Shown here one piece after another: positions 2,975-59,608 of a DNA stretch of 64,000 nucleotides (within the stretch, counting starts at the first letter, position 1; every line of letters starts with the position of its first letter). The translations under genes and the position numbers were made by a program. The notes beneath the pieces were generated by a model. The model was not told the origin of the DNA. It worked only from the letters and a program-made list of their open reading frames with translations, and did no database searches. This DNA comes from Escherichia phage vB_EcoM_G37-3, in the sequence record MK327941.1; one strand, given 5' to 3'.

Positions 2975-3510
2975 AGGTCGCGATATAGTACATTATGAAA
3001 ATGAGAACTTGCATTACCAATATTGTAGATAATAAATTCTTCATCCGGCGCTTGCGCTACAAATTGAGTATGAGCAACCGCCACAACCTTAAAAATACGA
3101 TCCGTGATCTTGTGTTTAATTTCTGCCCCTACTTCCATAGGAACATATTCATTTGTTTCTGTTTCAGTCGCAAAACAGCCATCTTCTTCATAAGCACGAA
3201 TAAATCGGTCGCAATCAGTACGCTTAACAAATTCAAGAGTATATAATTCTCGTGAATTGTCGGTATAGACCAATACAGAATTATTATGATAGCGAATCAC
3301 ATACAGGTTATTATCATCGTCAATTACGCAAAAGCTACGGATTCCTTCGCCTTGACTCCAGCAGATATTAACCACCGTTCCTCTAATAAAAAAACTTTCC
3401 TTTAAATTAAAACTAGCCAATGTGCTAGCGTGCATTTTAACAACAACACCATCACCAATTTCCAGTTTACGAAGTTTAACTTCTTTGCTCAGTACACAAA
3501 ACATCATCAT
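2971..3510 (-). CDS. Hypothetical protein (179 aa)
   Basis: ORF starting MMMFCVLSKE with RBS GAGGA upstream and PeSL-type promoter. Confidence 0.5.
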   Translation of the reverse strand: MMMFCVLSKEVKLRKLEIGDGVVVKMHASTLASFNLKESFFIRGTVVNICWSQGEGIRSFCVIDDDNNLYVIRYHNNSVLVYTDNSRELYTLEFVKRTDCDRFIRAYEEDGCFATETETNEYVPMEVGAEIKHKITDRIFKVVAVAHTQFVAQAPDEEFIIYNIGNASSHFHNVLYRDL

Positions 3511-3610: not shown

Positions 3611-5473
3611 TTACATGTGCTTAACGCGGTTTACCATCTCGGAGTGTTTCCCGTGGTTGAATGGACGCAGATCAACAGATCCAAGATATCCACTAACGCG
3701 ACGGATAACATTCATCTTTTCCAGATTGTCATTACCGCAATCAGGACAAACAAAACCAGACTCGGTCGCTCTCATTTCCTTAGTGGATCCGCATACATGA
3801 CATACATCAGAAGGAGTATTAACACCGAAGTAGTGCAATTTATCCATTGCATAGTCTACTACAGTTTCAAGACCTTTCAGGTTGTTTTTCATGTCTGGGA
3901 ACTCAACATAAGAGATCATGCCACCGGACGCCAGCCAGTGATAATCTTTCTCAAAGTCGATTTTCTCAAATGGAGTGACTTTCCGGTCTACGTCAAGATG
4001 GAATGAGTTGGTGTACCAGTCTTTATCGGTAGCACCCTTAACAATACCAAATTGCTCTCGGTCCAGTCGATTAAATCGATAGCAAAGGCTCTCGGCTGGC
4101 GTACCGTAAAGACTAAACCCAAGTCCGGTTTCATCCTTCCATTTTTCAGTATAATGACGCAAGATCTTAAGAATATGTTTACCGTATCGCTGCGCATCTT
4201 CCGAATCAAACGGATGAACATCAAACAGGACGCTCAATACCTCATGTAAACCAATATATCCAAGAGAGATACTAGCGCGACCATCTTTCAGAACTTCCAA
4301 AATTTCATCGTTTTGATGAATACGGAAAAATGCACCTTCTGTATACAGTACAGGAGCAACATTGGCTTTAGCCCCTTTTAAAGCGTCTACGCGACTCATG
4401 AGCGCATCAAAGCAAATAGGCATACGATTAGCTAGCTCTTGTTCGAATAGCTCAATTCTGCGCATTACAGACGCTTTACCAGCACGACGCGCGGCAATAA
4501 GGGCAATACGCGGAAGATTTAGAGTCACAACACCTAAGTTATTACGTCCGTCTAATACTTCTTCGCCTTTCTCATTATGCCACACACCCAGGAAGCTACG
4601 ACAACCCATCGGGCTAACCGGAACACTAGATCCGGTGATACTACGGTTATTCTTCGCAGAGATATAATCAGGGTAAAGACGCTTACTCGAACATTCCAAT
4701 GCAAGTTGCTTAATGTCGTAGTTCGGATCTTCCGGTTTAAGGTTTAATCCTTCTTCTAAGAACATCACCAGCTTAGGAAACACCGGAGTGATACCATCTT
4801 TACCTAAACCTTTAGTTCGAACGTTCAGGATCGCTTTCTGAATCAGTTTTTCTTCCCAGCTAGTACCCATACCAAAGGTTAAAGTCACAAAAGGCGTTTG
4901 ACCGTTGGTGGAGAACAAAGTGTTGATTTCATATTCCAACGCTTGATACCCGTCTAAAGTTTCTTTTTCTGTCTTCTCTTGTGCATAGAGAGTATCAGCT
5001 TTGATTCCGTAGGTTTCGGCATCAGCAAGGTGTTTATGATATGTTTTCTCAACATACGGTGCTAACACCTGATCGATGTTTGCGATTGTGGTCCCGCCAT
5101 ATTGATGACTTGCCACCTGTGCGATAATTTGAGCGGTTACAGCACAAGCAACGCCGATTGATTTCGGACTTTCGATTTGTGCGCTACCCAATTTAAAACC
5201 ATTCTCTAACATGTCTTTTAGATTAACAAGACAGCAGTTAGTAAACGGCATAGCGGGTGCATAATCCATATCATGATAATGAATATCACCGTCTACATGC
5301 GCTTTATAGATGTGCTCAGGTAACACGGTTTTAGCAATCTGTTTAGACACAGCACCAGCAATCAGATCTCGACGTGTCGGGAATGTTCGCGCGTCTTTGT
5401 TCGCGTTCTCTTTGCTTACTTCGTTTTCTTTACCCGTTGCGATCTCTGTAATGTCTTTGATTAGTTTTTCCAT
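3611..5473 (-). CDS. nrdD: Anaerobic ribonucleoside-triphosphate reductase NrdD (glycyl radical enzyme), uninterrupted
   Basis: 620-aa ORF collinear with T4 NrdD (FPTRRDLIAGAVSK, PFTNCCLVNLKDMLENGFKLG, C-terminal Cys cluster CHVCGS...CPDCG). Confidence 0.95.
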   Translation of the reverse strand: MEKLIKDITEIATGKENEVSKENANKDARTFPTRRDLIAGAVSKQIAKTVLPEHIYKAHVDGDIHYHDMDYAPAMPFTNCCLVNLKDMLENGFKLGSAQIESPKSIGVACAVTAQIIAQVASHQYGGTTIANIDQVLAPYVEKTYHKHLADAETYGIKADTLYAQEKTEKETLDGYQALEYEINTLFSTNGQTPFVTLTFGMGTSWEEKLIQKAILNVRTKGLGKDGITPVFPKLVMFLEEGLNLKPEDPNYDIKQLALECSSKRLYPDYISAKNNRSITGSSVPVSPMGCRSFLGVWHNEKGEEVLDGRNNLGVVTLNLPRIALIAARRAGKASVMRRIELFEQELANRMPICFDALMSRVDALKGAKANVAPVLYTEGAFFRIHQNDEILEVLKDGRASISLGYIGLHEVLSVLFDVHPFDSEDAQRYGKHILKILRHYTEKWKDETGLGFSLYGTPAESLCYRFNRLDREQFGIVKGATDKDWYTNSFHLDVDRKVTPFEKIDFEKDYHWLASGGMISYVEFPDMKNNLKGLETVVDYAMDKLHYFGVNTPSDVCHVCGSTKEMRATESGFVCPDCGNDNLEKMNVIRRVSGYLGSVDLRPFNHGKHSEMVNRVKHM

Positions 5474-26310: not shown

Positions 26311-26505
26311 TTATTCAAACTCAAACGGTCTATTCAACCTATTGTAAAAGTACATATAACAAGCAAAATTATGCTTTGGCTGTACCGTATCAGATAGACA
26401 CGCTTTTACAGCCTCGCGGTCCGATGGGTCTACACCCTCAGCTTTAAGTAATGCTAAAATCTGGTTATAGCGTACTCTTAGTTGTACTAATGGTTTATCC
26501 CCCAT
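26311..26505 (-). CDS. Hypothetical protein (64 aa)
   Basis: ORF in gene chain. Confidence 0.4.
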   Translation of the reverse strand: MGDKPLVQLRVRYNQILALLKAEGVDPSDREAVKACLSDTVQPKHNFACYMYFYNRLNRPFEFE

Positions 26506-26514
26506 ATTACCCCC

Positions 26515-26742
26515 TTATAGTTGATCAGCAATGTATGCGGTGCATTTGCGGAGTTTAGCCATAGCACCACCTTTCATGTCGCTTGCGCCTACAATGTTCA
26601 TGATCTCTAAGCGATCAGCCGGATTCAGTCTAGTAGCCAAGATCTGGTTAGCCAGTTCCATTTTACCCATCTGCGGTTCCATCTCAAACATTTCACGCTC
26701 AAAGTCGATAATTTCTTTTGCTGCGTCTTTAAAGTTAATCAT
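26515..26742 (-). CDS. Hypothetical protein (75 aa)
   Basis: ATG with RBS GGAGGACCAAA and PeSL-type promoter. Confidence 0.45.
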   Translation of the reverse strand: MINFKDAAKEIIDFEREMFEMEPQMGKMELANQILATRLNPADRLEIMNIVGASDMKGGAMAKLRKCTAYIADQL

Positions 26743-26771
26743 TTTGGTCCTCCCGTTTCGTTGATGGTTGT

Positions 26772-26800
26772 ATTGTAGGGGAGTTATCCTCCCCTGTCAA
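26772..26800 (-). promoter_or_regulatory. Early promoter with spacer palindrome (PeSL-like)
   Basis: Minus strand TTGACA, spacer GGGGAGGATAACTCCCC, TACAAT. Confidence 0.6.
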
Positions 26801-26808
26801 CACTTTTA

Positions 26809-26994
26809 TCAGAAATATGCAATATAGTTTGCCAGTCCTACAGAGTCATCATTCGGCATTGCTTTTACCGCCAGTTCAAACCCTGCTTCAACTTTCTGTT
26901 TAGCGGATTCTTCGTTATAACCCCAGATGACCAGAATAGCTACTACGTTTTCTTTGCTTACTGCTTTCAGTGCTTTAGTGATGCGACGTGCCAT
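26809..26994 (-). CDS. Hypothetical protein (61 aa)
   Basis: ATG with RBS GGAGAATCAAATT and PeSL-type promoter. Confidence 0.45.
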   Translation of the reverse strand: MARRITKALKAVSKENVVAILVIWGYNEESAKQKVEAGFELAVKAMPNDDSVGLANYIAYF

Positions 26995-27040
26995 AATTTG
27001 ATTCTCCGTTTAAGAAAGTGTGTTTCGTTTCGATGGGTGT

Positions 27041-27069
27041 ATTATGCTATAGGCGTGATCTGGTGTCAA
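27041..27069 (-). promoter_or_regulatory. Early sigma70-type promoter (PeSL-like cassette)
   Basis: Minus strand TTGACA, 17-nt spacer, CATAAT, conserved leader. Confidence 0.5.
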
Positions 27070-27094
27070 CAACTTTTTTAAAAAATTTTAGGCA

Positions 27095-27125
27095 ATAAAA
27101 AAGCCACTCCGAAGAGTGGCTTATA
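27095..27125 (-). terminator. Rho-independent terminator
   Basis: Minus strand hairpin GCCACTC-TTCG-GAGTGGC followed by TTTTTT. Confidence 0.6.
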
Positions 27126-27271
27126 GGGAAGGTAGCGAATCTTCCTTATCTCCAACCTGCTAGCGGCCTAGCAAGTGAATGCTTTAGCGTACCGGATCAC
27201 CCCCATACGCTGTAATAAATGCGGCTAGGTGACGTCCAAATCATTCTAACCGCGCTGTCTTTAGTTCACTA

Positions 27272-27490
27272 TTATTTATATCGCTTTCTCTCGCGACGTT
27301 TTTGATCTTCTTCCTTGATAGAGTTAAACGCATCAAAAAGACACATGACACTAATAATAAACATAACCGTATTTTCTACGATATCCCACGGCTTCGCATC
27401 GGTACAGATTCCCCAAACTGTAAGAAATGCAAATAGTGCAGAAGAGATCACAAGCATGATACTTGCTAAGATATAAAAAGTCATTTTCAT
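27272..27490 (-). CDS. Small membrane protein
   Basis: Hydrophobic ORF with basic C-terminus KEEDQKRRERKRYK. Confidence 0.4.
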   Translation of the reverse strand: MKMTFYILASIMLVISSALFAFLTVWGICTDAKPWDIVENTVMFIISVMCLFDAFNSIKEEDQKRRERKRYK

Positions 27491-27681
27491 GGTTTTACCT
27501 CAATTCTTCGATATTCATCACACATCCACGCAGTAAGCAAGAATCCCAACACATAAGCAACAAAATACGTTAATGCTTCTTCTGGTTTCGTGCTATGTAT
27601 CATCAGTAAACCAGCGAGAACGGTCTTAACAATTGCATTTAAAATAATTAACCACGCAAATAATTTCATCGTTTGCCCCAT
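27487..27681 (-). CDS. Small membrane protein
   Basis: Hydrophobic 64-aa ORF. Confidence 0.4.
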   Translation of the reverse strand: MGQTMKLFAWLIILNAIVKTVLAGLLMIHSTKPEEALTYFVAYVLGFLLTAWMCDEYRRIEVKP

Positions 27682-27905
27682 TTCGGTCGAGTCTTTTCAA
27701 ACTTATACATTCCGTAACAATCTCGAATCATCCACGTAACAAGAGCACCAGTCAACACAGACAATACACAGAAGAAGTAAAACGGTCCGGTTGCATTATC
27801 AACATGAGCAAGCCAGGTAAAGAAAACACATGCAAGGAATGTAAAGAACATCATAAAACACAAGAAAGCAAAATATTTTATGCTACTCATAGCGCCACCA
27901 TACAA
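27666..27905 (-). CDS. Small membrane protein
   Basis: Hydrophobic 79-aa ORF. Confidence 0.4.
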   Translation of the reverse strand: MYGGAMSSIKYFAFLCFMMFFTFLACVFFTWLAHVDNATGPFYFFCVLSVLTGALVTWMIRDCYGMYKFEKTRPKWGKR

Positions 27906-27993
27906 CAGATCATAAGAAAACCCAACGCAATAAGAATTGCATCAAATTTAGTGAACTCAGATCCACCTATCAACATCATTCGTTCCTGTTCAT

Positions 27994-28236
27994 TCATAGA
28001 TCACAGAGCCATCTTAAAGCACCACATAAAGCGATCAAAAGACTAGGTATAAACGAGACTAAAACAAGACTACAAAAATCATCTAAGGTAACGCCGGAAT
28101 AGCTACCTACTGTAACAACACCGATCATCAGACACAGAAAGAAAACAAATGCAATCAGAAACAAAGTATTGCTAAACAGTTTAGTGATCATTAGACACCC
28201 CACGACGATCAATTTCAAAAACTTTTTTACCATCAA
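27994..28236 (-). CDS. Small membrane protein
   Basis: Hydrophobic 80-aa ORF. Confidence 0.4.
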   Translation of the reverse strand: MMVKKFLKLIVVGCLMITKLFSNTLFLIAFVFFLCLMIGVVTVGSYSGVTLDDFCSLVLVSFIPSLLIALCGALRWLCDL

Positions 28237-31125: not shown

Positions 31126-31315
31126 TACTGATTCCTCAAATGAAAATATTTATTAACAATTGTCGCTTTGCGACGTGCCGGAGGCATTGACTACTTTTTA
31201 ACCGAAACAAATTTTCTATTATTCTAAAGATCTTTCTTCGTTTTGGTTATGTTTTAACCAATAACTATATTTTTATACAGTAATAAATAAAACGGGTACT
31301 ATACGAGGACTTCTT

Positions 31316-31570
31316 ATGACAGAAGACATTTTGTTAAAACTCTATGATCGTCTGGATAACGAATTAGCAACATTGCGGGGTGAAGTTCTCTATTTGTCTA
31401 AATGCAATACAGATCTGCTTAAGCAGATTGCAGAAAGGGATGATCAAATAAAATCCCTTTCAGGTGCATTACGTGATCGCGACAAGGCATTAGAGATTTT
31501 ACAGCGTGTTACCAATAAGGAAGAATTAAAAGACTTCTTACATGGTTATGCTCATGCTATCGATCTATAA
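31316..31570 (+). CDS. Hypothetical coiled-coil protein (84 aa), plus-strand gene inside minus-strand block
   Basis: ATG with RBS GAGGA; ends at bidirectional hairpin. Confidence 0.4.
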   Translation: MTEDILLKLYDRLDNELATLRGEVLYLSKCNTDLLKQIAERDDQIKSLSGALRDRDKALEILQRVTNKEELKDFLHGYAHAIDL

Positions 31571-57610: not shown

Positions 57611-59608
57611 ATGACTCTATTATCACCGGGTTTCGAAACGAAAGAAACTACTCTCTCCACTACCATTGTGCAATCTGCGACTGGTCGCGCGGCACTGGTG
57701 GGTAAATTCCAATGGGGTCCAGCTTTCCAGATTGTTCAAGTAACTAATGAAGTTGAATTAGTTAATAAATTTGGTCAGCCGGATAATAACACCGCAGACT
57801 ATTTCATGAGCGGGGCTAACTTCCTCCAGTATGGCAATGACCTGCGTGTTGTTCGTGTACTCAATAAAGAAAAAGCAAAAAACGCAACTGTCCTAGCTGG
57901 TAACGTAGAGTTTGAAATCACAAACGAAGGTTCTAACTACAAAGTAGGCGATTCAATTAAAGTAAAATACAATCGTCAGGATGTTGAAACCGCTGGCAAA
58001 GTAACCAAAGTAGATACCGAAGGTAAAATTAAAGGTATTTTCATCCCAACCGGGAAAATCATTTCTCTGGCTAAATCCATTGGTGTTTACCCTAATCTGG
58101 ATGGGTTTACCGTAGAAATCACTTCCGGCACTGGTAACTCAACTGCGGCAATTACCATTTCCAAAATTGTAACCGATTCCGGTCTTCTCTTAACGGATCT
58201 GGAAACTTCCCGTGCCAATATCACAAATCAAACTTTCTTGACTAAACTCAAGAAATATGATATGCCAGCGGTAAGTGCAATCTATGCGGGTGAGATCGGG
58301 GACTCTCTGGAAGTCGAGATCCTAGCACGTAGTGCGTTTAAGAACACCGCACCGGATCTGACAATGTATCCTTACGGCGGTACTCGCACCGCAGCACGCA
58401 ACCTGATTCCATATGCACCGCAGAATGATAATCAATATGCGTTTATTGTTCGTCGTGATGGTGTTGTGGTAGAATCCTATGTACTGTCTACTCTGAAAGG
58501 GGATAAAGACGTATACGGCAATTCTATCTATATGGACGACTTCTTTGCTCGTGGTTCTAGCCAGTACATCTATGCAACCGCTCAGGGCTGGGTAGATGGT
58601 TTCAGTGGTATTATCTCTCTTGCTGGTGGTGTGTCTGCTAACGAAGCAACGATCGGTGGAGTTGGTGCTGATCCGTTCATCGGTGCGATGATGCAAGGTT
58701 GGGATCTGTTTGCTGAACGAGAATCTATTCACGTAAACCTGTTGATTGCTGGTGCATGTGCTGGCGAAGGCGATGCGTTCTCTACCGTACAGAAACATGC
58801 TGTTTCCATCGGTGATGAGCGTCAGGATTGCTTAGTAATGGTTTCTCCGCCGCGTAGCACTGTTGTTAATATTCCGGTGACTACTGCAATTGATAACCTG
58901 ATTGCATGGCGCGAAGGTTCAGGAAACTATAATGAAAACAACATGAACATTAATACCACTTACGCGGTTATTGATGGTAACTACAAATATCAGTATGACA
59001 AATACAACGACGTAAACCGTTGGGTTCCGTTGGCTGCTGATATTGCTGGTTTGTGCGCTCGTACTGATGCTGTATCCCAGCCGTGGATGAGTCCGGCAGG
59101 TTATAACCGTGGTCAGATCATGAACGTGGTTAAACTGGCAATTGAGCCTCGTAAGGCGCACCGCGATCGTCTGTATCAGGCCGCAATTAACCCGGTAATC
59201 GGTGCTGGCGGTGAAGGGTTTATCCTAATGGGTGATAAAACCGCTACGACTGTTCCTAGCCCGTTTGACCGCATTAACGTTCGTCGTCTGTTTAACATGC
59301 TGAAAAAGAATATCGGCGATTCAAGCAAATACAAACTGTTTGAAAACAACGATAACTTTACTCGCGCTTCCTTCCGTATGGAGGTTTCGCAATATCTCAG
59401 CACGATTCGCTCTCTGGGTGGCATTTATGACTTCCGAGTACAATGCGACACCACGAATAACACGCCGGATGTAATTGATCGTAACGAATTTGTTGCTAGT
59501 ATGTTCATCAAACCAGCAAAATCGATCAACTATATCATGCTCAATTTCACTGCTGTTGCAACTGGTTCTGATTTTGACGAAATTATCGGTCCAGCTAACC
59601 AGGCATAA
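57611..59608 (+). CDS. 18: Tail sheath protein gp18
   Basis: MTLLSPGFETKETT... and extensive identity blocks with T4 gp18. Confidence 0.95.
   Translation: MTLLSPGFETKETTLSTTIVQSATGRAALVGKFQWGPAFQIVQVTNEVELVNKFGQPDNNTADYFMSGANFLQYGNDLRVVRVLNKEKAKNATVLAGNVEFEITNEGSNYKVGDSIKVKYNRQDVETAGKVTKVDTEGKIKGIFIPTGKIISLAKSIGVYPNLDGFTVEITSGTGNSTAAITISKIVTDSGLLLTDLETSRANITNQTFLTKLKKYDMPAVSAIYAGEIGDSLEVEILARSAFKNTAPDLTMYPYGGTRTAARNLIPYAPQNDNQYAFIVRRDGVVVESYVLSTLKGDKDVYGNSIYMDDFFARGSSQYIYATAQGWVDGFSGIISLAGGVSANEATIGGVGADPFIGAMMQGWDLFAERESIHVNLLIAGACAGEGDAFSTVQKHAVSIGDERQDCLVMVSPPRSTVVNIPVTTAIDNLIAWREGSGNYNENNMNINTTYAVIDGNYKYQYDKYNDVNRWVPLAADIAGLCARTDAVSQPWMSPAGYNRGQIMNVVKLAIEPRKAHRDRLYQAAINPVIGAGGEGFILMGDKTATTVPSPFDRINVRRLFNMLKKNIGDSSKYKLFENNDNFTRASFRMEVSQYLSTIRSLGGIYDFRVQCDTTNNTPDVIDRNEFVASMFIKPAKSINYIMLNFTAVATGSDFDEIIGPANQA

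What the first reader, a model, noticed from the sequence alone, without database searches (positions are those of the whole stretch)
27126..27271. About 145-nt non-coding interval upstream of a terminator with short hairpins
Between the stop of ORF 27272-27490 and the terminator at 27095-27125 there is a non-coding stretch containing a hairpin TGCTAG-CGGC-CTAGCA (about 27165-27180) and other GC-rich inverted segments. No tRNA-like T-loop or D-loop was recognised. It is a candidate small regulatory RNA or processing site.
Basis: seen in the sequence. Interest (0 to 1): 0.35.

Follow-up and report, generated by a model that had tools for sequence, protein, structure and literature searches.

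The report
Conserved structured non-coding RNA in krischviruses
A 146-base stretch between a small membrane-protein gene and a transcription terminator in an RB49-like (T4-type) E. coli phage is non-coding, present in every sequenced relative, and folds into four hairpins on the transcribed strand, so it is probably an undescribed phage small RNA or 3'-UTR element whose function is unknown.

Summary
Window 27126-27271 carries no conserved ORF. It lies on the minus (transcribed) strand between the stop codon of ORF72 and a strong intrinsic terminator, which is followed by an early promoter (a PeSL cassette). The window is a Krischvirus (RB49/Phi1/JSE group).

- **No known family.** There is no tRNA and no Rfam match. 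I found no similarity to T4 rnaC/rnaD, to E. coli genomes or plasmids (apart from the terminator hairpin), or to bacterial genomes.
- **Distribution.** It is single-copy in all 58 krischvirus records and in nine metagenomic relatives, and it was found nowhere else.
- **Structure.** The minus-strand RNA folds into four hairpins plus the terminator (z -2.7; -4.3 with the terminator).
- **Conservation.** Outside hairpin 2 its diversity (pi 0.017) is 3-12 times lower than third codon positions of the flanking genes.
- **Substitutions.** Hairpin 2 varies, but its lower stem keeps pairing, with a GC/GU/AU series at one pair. Single changes in the other scored stems are wobble-compatible on the minus strand only, apart from one break (C>A in HP3's lower extension) and an alignment-ambiguous apical pair in hairpin 2. 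Formal covariation is weak.
- **Possible own promoter.** An exact T4-type late promoter box (TATAAATA) sits at its 5' edge, so a roughly 170-nt late RNA is plausible but unproven.

A resemblance to the ToxI antitoxin RNA is at chance level. The function is unknown and interest is moderate.

The parts
27272..27490 (-). ORF72 (Phi1 ORF118 / RB49 ORF118), a krischvirus-only small protein annotated 'putative membrane protein' in phage W115. It ends in three in-frame stops, TAA TAG TGA (27274-27266).
27273..27280 (-). Exact T4-type late promoter box TATAAATA, overlapping the last codons and stop of ORF72. It predicts a transcription start near 27267.
   Evidence: The five other exact matches in the window all sit 20-40 nt upstream of a start codon. 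The box is present in all copies except MAVA01000028, which has a 14-nt deletion. The -13..-6 rule comes from PMC1524935. Nolan et al. did not predict it as a late promoter.
27126..27271 (-). The 146-nt non-coding structured interval (the finding).
27221..27253 (-). Hairpin 1: an 8-bp stem (GCGGUUAG/CUAGCCGC), an internal loop, a 4-bp stem and the hexaloop UUGGAC. It is sequence-invariant apart from one wobble-compatible change and one loop change.
27186..27211 (-). Hairpin 2: a 7-bp lower stem with a variable apical part. It is the only fast-evolving segment (pi 0.117). The lower stem keeps pairing through a GC/GU/AU series and through G-U changes.
27151..27179 (-). It is invariant apart from one C>A change in the extension.
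27127..27145 (-). Hairpin 4: GGAAG-AUUCGCUAC-CUUCC. There is one A>G change, giving a G-U pair.
27095..27125 (-). Intrinsic terminator (9-bp stem, UUCG loop, a run of six U of which two close the stem, then AUU). It is the stem-loop part of a PeSL cassette.
26995..27094 (-). The rest of the PeSL cassette: an AT-rich tract, -35 TTGACA (27069-27064), -10 CATAAT (27046-27041), and the leader and SD of ORF61. The leader is repeated elsewhere in the window (about 26102-26042).
26809..26994 (-). ORF61 (Phi1 ORF117, Pfam DUF7421), the downstream gene with its own promoter.

Best explanation
The interval is the body of a genus-specific, structured non-coding RNA that acts at the RNA level.

How it is probably made (inferred):
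- As the 3' end of the early polycistronic transcript that also carries dmd and several small genes (ORF72 is annotated as a membrane protein) and stops at the PeSL terminator.
- Probably also as a separate RNA of about 170 nt, started late in infection from the TATAAATA box at 27280-27273 (start near 27267) and ended by the same terminator.

It folds into four hairpins joined by A/U-rich linkers, followed by the terminator hairpin and its U tail. Hairpins 1, 3 and 4 and the linkers are held nearly invariant in sequence, which points to sequence-specific recognition by an RNA-binding protein or by base pairing with a target. Hairpin 2 is constrained only in its pairing.

My committed reading is a trans-acting small RNA or protein-binding RNA rather than a generic 3' stabiliser.

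Shown: the interval is non-coding, conserved, folds asymmetrically between strands, and shows pairing-compatible substitutions.
Inferred: transcription, the late start, trans action, and the binding partner.
For: - **Non-coding.** All frames are closed, and G-run indels shift the only mini-ORFs.
- **Distribution.** It is single-copy in 58/58 krischvirus records at 96-99% identity and in nine metagenomic relatives, including lineages whose ORF72 is only 81-83% identical.
- **Conservation (nine-genome alignment).** Outside hairpin 2, pi is 0.017. Third codon positions of nine flanking ORFs range from 0.053 to 0.20. The terminator is at 0, and hairpin 2 at 0.117.
- **Pairing (21 distinct sequences).** Stems are 99.4% paired. 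Pair 62-85 occurs as GC, GU and AU. Every single change in the stems other than 27177 C>A and the alignment-ambiguous apical pair 71-77 of hairpin 2 (46 A>G, 61 A>G, 83 C>U, 85 C>U, 129 A>G) gives a wobble pair on the minus strand and would give a C.A mismatch on the plus strand. Five invariant G.U pairs exist. The covariation score was reached by 6/500 shuffles.
- **Folding.** z is -2.7 and -4.3 on the minus strand against -1.6 on the plus strand. Raw MFE ranks 14/6388.
- **Genome context.** The gap is one of the few long ones in a compact genome.
- **Late promoter box.** It is exact, and all five other copies in the window sit directly in front of genes, although about 6.6 copies are expected by chance. 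The box is retained in 21 of the 22 sequenced copies.
Against: - There is no transcript evidence.
- Formal covariation is weak. Only one pair changes on both sides, 41 of 47 pairs never vary, and the sequences are closely related, so shuffles overstate significance.
- Mosaic recombination produces 99-100% identity blocks in coding DNA too, so high identity in one divergent contig is not proof of selection.
- The adjacent ORF61 block is also low in diversity. The comparison of the element outside hairpin 2 with ORF61 third positions is only marginal (Fisher p = 0.064).
- After GC correction the fold is in the top 1.8%, not extreme.
- Nolan et al. 2006 did not list the TATAAATA box among 17 predicted RB49 late promoters. 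It overlaps conserved codons, and one natural variant has deleted it.
- No antisense target of 12 nt or more exists in the window, and predicted duplexes with 151 translation start regions are no better than for shuffled RNA.
Confidence: 0.55

Rival explanations
1. A cis-acting 3'-UTR module. The stack of hairpins ahead of the terminator protects the early dmd-operon mRNA from 3' exonucleases, or sets its processing and decay. It has no trans function.
For: It lies at the 3' end of an early operon and shares that operon's terminator. It has several stable hairpins. A/U-rich linkers and a single-stranded GGAG could be RNase E or RegB sites (sequence, plus general T4 knowledge). No trans target was found.
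Against: A generic stabiliser needs structure, not sequence. Yet hairpins 1, 3 and 4 and the linkers are nearly invariant, while hairpin 2 shows that the lineage can vary a stem freely. The other early-strand PeSL gaps seen in the window manage with roughly 60-80-nt gaps and no such module. The terminator hairpin alone is already a strong 3' block.
Confidence: 0.2
2. A non-functional leftover (a decayed gene fragment or spacer) that looks conserved only because krischviruses are closely related and because the block next to a recombinogenic PeSL is repeatedly homogenised.
For: All copies are 94-99% identical. Identity along a divergent contig is mosaic, with 99-100% blocks in coding DNA. The neighbouring ORF61 block is also low in diversity. 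Covariation is weak. No homologue exists outside the genus.
Against: Diversity outside hairpin 2 is about 3-fold lower than ORF61 third positions and about 11-fold lower than ORF72 third positions. The single stem substitutions scored in the structure are all of the minus-strand wobble-compatible kind (five kept), with one break (27177 C>A) and an alignment-ambiguous apical pair in hairpin 2. By my own estimate, not a tool result, about one third to one half would be kept by chance. A 146-nt dead spacer retained in 58/58 genomes of a compact phage with frequent indels in this region is unlikely. GC is 9 points above the genome.
Confidence: 0.15
3. An RNA decoy against a host defence. The specific version considered is a pseudo-ToxI-like mimic of the ToxI antitoxin RNA that would neutralise ToxN of plasmid-borne ToxIN systems.
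For: GAUUCGCUACCUU (27140-27128) matches ToxI GAUUUGCUACCUU at 12 of 13 positions. The exact ToxI repeat is common on small E. coli, Salmonella and Klebsiella plasmids. The element lies in the same operon as dmd, an anti-toxin gene. Hairpin 2 evolves fast, as arms-race determinants do. There is a precedent in phage PhiTE (PMC3475682).
Against: The similarity is at chance level: 15/1000 shuffles score as well, and nine loci in the window score at least as high. Rfam ToxI is not among the matches at E<=10. There are no 36-nt tandem repeats. I could not find pairing for the second helix of the ToxI pseudoknot as I inferred it from the 36-nt sequence (by inspection and from memory).
Confidence: 0.04
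4. A DNA-level element, such as a protein-binding site, a recombination site or an origin-like site, rather than an RNA.
For: It contains palindromes (GCTAGC, GACGTC). It lies next to a PeSL, where recombination is documented. The sequence is invariant in three of the four hairpins.
Against: The five invariant G.U pairs and the observed single stem changes apart from 27177 C>A are pairing-compatible on the minus strand only. That has no meaning for duplex DNA. The fold is clearly better on the transcribed strand.
Confidence: 0.05

Closest known systems
3'-UTR-derived and terminator-sharing small RNAs of enterobacteria (for example CpxQ, SroC, DapZ). This comparison rests on my own knowledge.
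   Same: The element lies after a stop codon, shares the operon's intrinsic terminator with a U tail, and has A/U-rich single-stranded linkers next to hairpins. It may have both a read-through and an internal-promoter origin.
   Different: It is phage-encoded. No Hfq or ProQ binding, processing site or target is known. It is longer and more structured than most such RNAs, and the internal promoter would be a T4-type late promoter.
T4 stable RNAs rnaC (species 1, 139 nt) and rnaD (species 2, 119 nt)
   Same: These are structured RNAs of unknown function, 120-140 nt long, in a T4-type phage. They lie on the early strand, downstream of gene 57B, in the hyperplastic region. The krischvirus element occupies a broadly comparable position (57B ... 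dmd ... ORF72, then the element).
   Different: There is no sequence similarity. T4 rnaC has a tRNA-like T arm (GGUUCGAAUCC) and lies next to the tRNA genes; from my own knowledge it is cut out of a tRNA precursor. The element here has no T loop, no adjacent tRNA (RB49 has none), and its own terminator.
PeSL cassettes (promoter-early stem-loops) of RB49 and Phi1, Arbiol et al. 2010 (PMC2839356) and Comeau et al. 2014 (PMC4122927)
   Same: The terminator, AT-rich tract, sigma-70 promoter and SD immediately downstream (27125-26995) form a typical PeSL. The element uses its stem-loop as a terminator.
   Different: PeSLs are repeated motifs of about 100 bp. The 146-nt interval is single-copy, is not part of the repeated consensus, and is not mentioned in the PeSL paper.
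Pseudo-ToxI of phage PhiTE and the ToxI antitoxin RNA (type III toxin-antitoxin)
   Same: Both are non-coding RNAs carried by a lytic phage. There is a 12/13-nt identity to ToxI, and the hosts carry ToxIN plasmids.
   Different: The similarity is not above chance. There are no tandem 36-nt units and no Rfam match.

Membership tests
tRNA / tRNA-like / tmRNA | A cloverleaf with D, anticodon and T arms, detectable by ARAGORN | tested here: not met
   ARAGORN found 0 genes in the whole window. Hairpin 4's loop AUUCGCUAC is not a T loop. RB49 is reported to have 0 tRNAs.
Any Rfam 15 family (riboswitches, ribozymes, sRNAs, ToxI, 6S, Y RNA and others) | A covariance-model score at or above the family's gathering threshold | tested here: not met
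   There were no matches at gathering thresholds in the window. At E<=10 the only hits were at 11-24 bits against thresholds of 41-100, and they were driven by the terminator hairpin.
T4 rnaC / rnaD stable RNAs | Sequence similarity to T4 rnaC or rnaD | tested here: not met
   Local alignment scores were below the shuffle mean.
T4 rnaC / rnaD stable RNAs | A tRNA-like T arm and acceptor end, embedded in a tRNA gene cluster | tested here: not met
   There is no GGUUCGAAUCC-type arm and no tRNA genes nearby.
ToxI / pseudo-ToxI (type III antitoxin RNA) | Tandem repeats of about 36 nt | tested here: not met
   The interval contains no tandem or direct repeat units (sequence).
ToxI / pseudo-ToxI (type III antitoxin RNA) | Sequence similarity to ToxI above chance | tested here: not met
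   The best match is 12 of 13 nt. 15/1000 shuffles and nine window loci score at least as well. ToxI was not reported by Rfam at E<=10.
ToxI / pseudo-ToxI (type III antitoxin RNA) | Neutralises ToxN | not testable with these tools
   This needs a toxicity-rescue or plating assay.
PeSL cassette | Stem-loop terminator, then an AT-rich tract, then a sigma-70 -35/-10, then an SD and start codon, repeated in the hyperplastic regions | tested here: met
   This is met for 27125-26995. The 146-nt interval itself lies outside the repeated motif and is single-copy.
Terminator-sharing (3'-UTR type) small RNA | Located after a stop codon and ending at the operon's intrinsic terminator with a U tail | tested here: met
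   The stop is at 27274-27272. The terminator stem-loop is at 27122-27101 and is followed by a run of six U, two of which close the stem.
Terminator-sharing (3'-UTR type) small RNA | A discrete stable transcript, produced from an internal promoter or by processing | not testable with these tools
   There is only a sequence-level late promoter box. No expression data for krischviruses were found.
Terminator-sharing (3'-UTR type) small RNA | Binding to Hfq or ProQ and a base-pairing target | tested here: inconclusive
   No complementarity of 12 nt or more exists in the window, and duplexes with start regions are no better than for shuffles. Host targets and protein binding could not be tested.
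T4-type late transcription unit | TATAAATA at -13 to -6 with an AT-rich downstream segment | tested here: met
   The octamer at 27280-27273 is exact and is followed by ATAGTGAA. The rule comes from PMC1524935 and PMC2988020. Activity was not tested, and the box is not in the published RB49 prediction list.
CRISPR repeat mimic (RNA anti-CRISPR) | Close similarity to a host CRISPR repeat | tested here: not met
   In 5,426 E. coli genomes only the terminator hairpin finds any match. The resemblance to the type I-F repeat, recalled from memory, is limited to TTCACT plus GCAG.

The most novel reading that the evidence does not exclude
The interval encodes a late-expressed phage small RNA that works as a decoy or sponge in the phage-host arms race. 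It would titrate a host RNA-targeting defence nuclease or an RNA chaperone. The invariant hairpins 1, 3 and 4 would be the binding platform, and the fast-evolving hairpin 2 the specificity determinant. It sits in the same operon as the anti-toxin gene dmd.
Probability: 0.1. Interest if true: 0.7.

Novelty: new member of a known kind. Interest (0 to 1): 0.4.

Why it matters
Krischviruses (RB49, Phi1, JSE and dozens of therapy-candidate isolates) are annotated as having no tRNA or ncRNA genes (PMC10194099; PMC1524935). A genus-wide, constrained, structured RNA would be their first non-coding gene. To my knowledge it would also be one of very few candidate regulatory RNAs in strictly lytic T4-type phages besides T4's unexplained rnaC and rnaD. 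The element is short, single-copy and flanked by defined signals, so it can be deleted or probed directly. If it proves to be a late sRNA or a decoy, it would add an RNA layer to T4-type gene control or counter-defence. If it is only a 3' stabiliser, it is ordinary.

Tried and rejected
- **Known families.** tRNA/tmRNA was negative, and Rfam was negative at gathering thresholds and at E<=10.
- **T4 RNAs.** There is no similarity to T4 rnaC, rnaD or the tRNA cluster.
- **ToxI mimicry.** I verified my recalled ToxI sequence against pECA1039 and E. coli plasmids. The similarity to the element is at chance level.
- **CRISPR-repeat mimicry and host-derived sequence.** Only the terminator matches E. 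coli genomes or plasmids.
- **CsrA-sponge idea.** There are four GGA motifs against about 2.7 expected (my own count from the sequence), which is not an enrichment.
- **Coding remnant or mini-ORFs.** Frames are closed and indels shift them.
- **Distant homologues.**
  - Two DNA patterns and a pseudo-protein trick on viral contigs found only two krischvirus-like contigs.
  - The metagenome scan found three loci, all krischvirus-like.
  - The bacterial genome scan found nothing.
  - blastn in distant mode on 50,697 phage records found only the 58 krischviruses.
  - The covariance model R1 found only the element itself in the window, the T4 tRNA region and two loci carrying ORF61 homologues.
- **Linkage to ORF61.** ORF61 homologues in T1-like phages have only 60-95-nt upstream gaps.
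- **Antisense targets.** The longest complementarity in the window is 11 nt, as expected by chance. The duplexfold screen of 151 start regions was uninformative.
- **A cloverleaf-like 7-bp closing stem (UAGUGAA/UUCGCUA).** It competes with hairpin 4. It is lost when the terminator is included, is weakened by the MAVA deletion, and would be absent from a late transcript, so I do not count it.
- **The divergent IMGVR contig as proof of selection.** I withdrew this because identity along that contig is mosaic.
- **The apparent breakpoint in OQVL01013596.** It is a junction with a uppS-like bacterial sequence, so the contig is probably chimeric.

Full report
**What the window is.** The 1.5 kb around the finding matches 58 records of the genus Krischvirus (RB49, Phi1, JSE, GEC-3S and others; Straboviridae, T4-type) at 90-99% identity. 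All genes around the finding are on the minus strand. Read on that strand, the order is:
- ORF72 (27490..27272, Phi1 ORF118), which ends with three in-frame stops, TAA TAG TGA.
- 146 nt without a gene (27271..27126).
- An intrinsic terminator: stem-loop 27122..27101, then a run of six U (two close the stem, four are free).
- An AT-rich tract and a near-consensus sigma-70 promoter (TTGACA 27069-27064, CATAAT 27046-27041).
- ORF61 (26994..26809, Phi1 ORF117).

The terminator plus promoter is a typical PeSL cassette as described for RB49 and Phi1 (PMC2839356). Nolan et al. 2006 predicted both parts for RB49: terminator 58720-58737 (score 100) and early promoter Pe:58699.

**Checking the observation.**
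- The interval is non-coding. All six frames carry stops, and the two mini-ORFs of 12-15 codons run through a G-run whose length differs between strains.
- RNA folding of the minus strand gives four hairpins. HP1 is 27253-27221, HP2 is 27211-27186, HP3 is 27179-27151 and HP4 is 27145-27127. The terminator follows.
- The energy is -49.2 kcal/mol for the 146 nt (z -2.74), and z is -4.33 with the terminator. The plus strand reaches only -40.8 (z -1.64).
- Among 6388 windows of the same length the interval ranks 14th by raw energy. It is in the top 1.8% after correction for its GC content, which is 49% against 40% overall.
- The intergenic gap of 277 nt is among the three longest uncovered gaps in the window by a crude ORF cover, where the median gap is 27 nt. 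The longest of these holds an opposite-strand ORF.
- ARAGORN found no tRNA. Rfam gave nothing at gathering thresholds, and only weak terminator-driven hits at E<=10.

**Distribution.**
- The 186 nt including the terminator occur once in each of the 58 krischvirus records at 96-99% identity, and in no other phage record (blastn with 11-nt words).
- E. coli genomes and plasmids match only the generic terminator hairpin.
- To look further I translated the element in its stop-poor frame and used it as a pseudo-protein, so that several degenerate patterns were scanned at once. Viral contigs gave two krischvirus-like contigs, metagenomes gave three, and bacterial genomes gave none.
- Homologues of ORF72 at 83-93% identity, looked up in assemblies, gave six more loci.
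- In every case the element follows ORF72.
- ORF61 has 75-80% identical homologues in T1-like siphoviruses, but there the upstream gap is only 60-95 nt, so the element does not travel with ORF61.
- A covariance model of the element found only the element itself in the window, in the T4 tRNA region and in those loci.

**Is it constrained?** In a nine-genome alignment of 2.5 kb, diversity compares as follows:

| Region | pi |
|---|---|
| Element, outside HP2 | 0.017 |
| HP2 | 0.117 |
| Terminator | 0 |
| Third codon positions of nine flanking ORFs | 0.053-0.20 |
| First and second codon positions of the same ORFs (ORF61 is at 0) | 0-0.10 |

Most of the element is therefore as constrained as protein-coding first and second positions, and HP2 drifts at about the synonymous rate. 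Three cautions apply:
- The lineage is mosaic. One divergent contig shows 99-100% identity blocks in coding DNA as well.
- The block that includes ORF61 is generally low in diversity.
- The comparison with ORF61 third positions alone is marginal (8/118 against 10/61 variable columns, p = 0.064).

**Is the constraint on an RNA?**
- In 21 distinct sequences the five helices are 99.4% paired.
- One HP2 pair occurs as G-C, G-U and A-U.
- The other single changes in the stems scored are 27226 A>G, 27211 A>G, 27189 C>U, 27187 C>U and 27143 A>G. All of them create G-U pairs on the minus strand and would create C.A mismatches on the plus strand.
- Two apical HP2 changes (27201 G>A, 27196 U>C) are also pairing-compatible in the single-sequence fold register. 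In the register scored the apical pair 71-77 counts as unpaired in 5 of 21 sequences, so it is alignment-ambiguous.
- One change breaks a pair (27177 C>A, in the lower extension of HP3).
- Five G-U pairs are invariant.
- By my own estimate, not a tool result, random substitutions would keep pairing about one third to one half of the time. Five to seven kept against one broken is therefore suggestive (roughly p 0.003-0.1, depending on how many kept events are counted and on the chance rate assumed).
- The formal measures are weak. Only one pair changes on both sides, 41 of 47 pairs never vary, and the covariation score was reached by 6/500 shuffles. The tool warns that this figure can be inflated by relatedness.
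- The strand asymmetry argues against a purely DNA-level role.

**How it could be expressed.**
- No sigma-70-type promoter lies just upstream. Early transcripts from the promoters upstream of the dmd-containing operon should therefore run through ORF72 and end at the terminator, which makes the element a 3' UTR.
- In addition, an exact T4-type late promoter box, TATAAATA, lies at 27280-27273 and overlaps the last codons of ORF72. With the published -13 to -6 rule (PMC1524935), transcription would start near 27267 and give an RNA of about 170 nt.
- The window holds six exact copies of the box, and about 6.6 are expected by chance. The other five all lie 20-40 nt upstream of start codons, so non-promoter copies appear to be avoided.
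- The box is kept in 21 of 22 sequenced copies.
- Against this, the box overlaps conserved Tyr-Lys-stop codons, it is missing from the 17 late promoters predicted for RB49, and one metagenomic variant has a 14-nt deletion that removes it.
- I put the late transcript at about 40-45%.

**What it most likely does.** HP1, HP3, HP4 and the A/U-rich linkers are constrained in sequence, while HP2 is constrained only in pairing. That pattern fits specific recognition, either by an RNA-binding protein or by base pairing, better than it fits a generic 3' stabiliser, which would need only stable stems. The layout resembles terminator-sharing enterobacterial small RNAs: hairpins, UA-rich linkers, a terminator hairpin and a U tail (my own knowledge). 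I therefore commit to a trans-acting or protein-binding small RNA at 0.55 confidence. The rivals are a cis-acting 3'-UTR module (0.2), a non-functional leftover (0.15), a DNA-level element (0.05) and a defence decoy such as a ToxI mimic (0.04).

**Leads that failed.**
- **T4 rnaC and rnaD.** T4 has two unexplained stable RNAs downstream of 57B, in a broadly comparable genome position. There is no sequence similarity, and the T4 RNAs have a tRNA-like T arm that this element lacks.
- **ToxI.** I noticed that GAUUCGCUACCUU resembles the ToxI antitoxin repeat. My recalled ToxI sequence proved exact on pECA1039 and on 49 E. coli plasmids. The match, however, is no better than 1.5% of shuffles, and eight other loci in the window do as well or better.
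- **Type I-F CRISPR repeat.** A vague likeness has no support.
- **Antisense targets.** None stands out in the window.
- **Literature.** No literature on krischvirus non-coding RNAs exists in the searchable library. One paper explicitly reports none by Rfam.

**Verdict.** The finding is a real, conserved, probably RNA-level element that belongs to no described family. It is a new member of a known kind (a phage small RNA or structured 3' UTR). Its function is unknown, and one RNA-seq or Northern experiment would settle whether a discrete transcript exists.

Noticed in passing
window 27110-27113 (terminator loop); locus L011 (phage FL15): In phage FL15 the terminator loop UUCG is replaced by its reverse complement CGAA while the stem is unchanged, so the loop is inverted. 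The PeSL paper located recombination crossovers within PeSL loops.
   Followed up: no
window, somewhere within 26500-28000 (exact position not mapped): Most krischvirus records align to window 26500-28000 in two pieces that span about 1,950 nt instead of 1,501. The window therefore lacks about 450 nt that they carry, or they have an insertion.
   Followed up: no
window 26809-26994 (ORF61, Pfam DUF7421): This small gene has 75-80% identical homologues in T1-like siphoviruses (Tunavirus and relatives) and 67% in Xuquatrovirus. That implies exchange between unrelated phage families.
   Followed up: partly
window 27080-27020, 26102-26042 and about 29066-29010: The early promoter plus leader of the PeSL is repeated at 85-88% identity at several places. 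Many metagenomic contigs end about 170-250 nt after ORF72, presumably because assemblies break at this repeat.
   Followed up: partly
locus L019 (MAVA01000028.1) around 1935-1940; window 27269-27282: A 14-nt deletion (GATATAAATAATAG) removes the ORF72 stop codon and the TATAAATA box. The ORF then ends at a TAA a few codons further on.
   Followed up: partly
locus L018 (OQVL01013596.1) 3121-3169; window breakpoint at 27140: Homology stops inside hairpin 4 and continues into a sequence that translates as KIPQHIAIILDGNGRW. This looks like the start of a bacterial undecaprenyl-pyrophosphate synthase, so the contig is probably chimeric.
   Followed up: partly
window 27266-27274: ORF72 ends with all three stop codons in a row and in frame (TAA TAG TGA). 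They are conserved in nearly all copies; E26 has TAA CAG TGA.
   Followed up: no
window 16502, 34122, 45493, 57572, 63162: All five other exact TATAAATA boxes in the window lie 20-40 nt upstream of a start codon with an SD. The total count equals the chance expectation, which suggests that non-promoter copies are selected against.
   Followed up: partly
window 31316-31570 (+): An 84-aa ORF lies on the plus strand inside an otherwise minus-strand early region, within a 475-nt gap. The part of the gap at 31167-31312 is only about 57-63% identical in a related contig.
   Followed up: no
not in the window: plasmids NC_011767.1, NZ_CP030330.1 and others: The 36-nt ToxI repeat of Pectobacterium pECA1039 is 100% identical on dozens of small mobilizable plasmids of E. 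coli, Salmonella and Klebsiella.
   Followed up: no
locus L006 (T4) 4370-4377 (-): T4 has an exact TATAAATA on the early strand inside trna.2, about 340 nt upstream of its tRNA and stable-RNA cluster. This parallels the box at the 5' edge of the krischvirus element.
   Followed up: no
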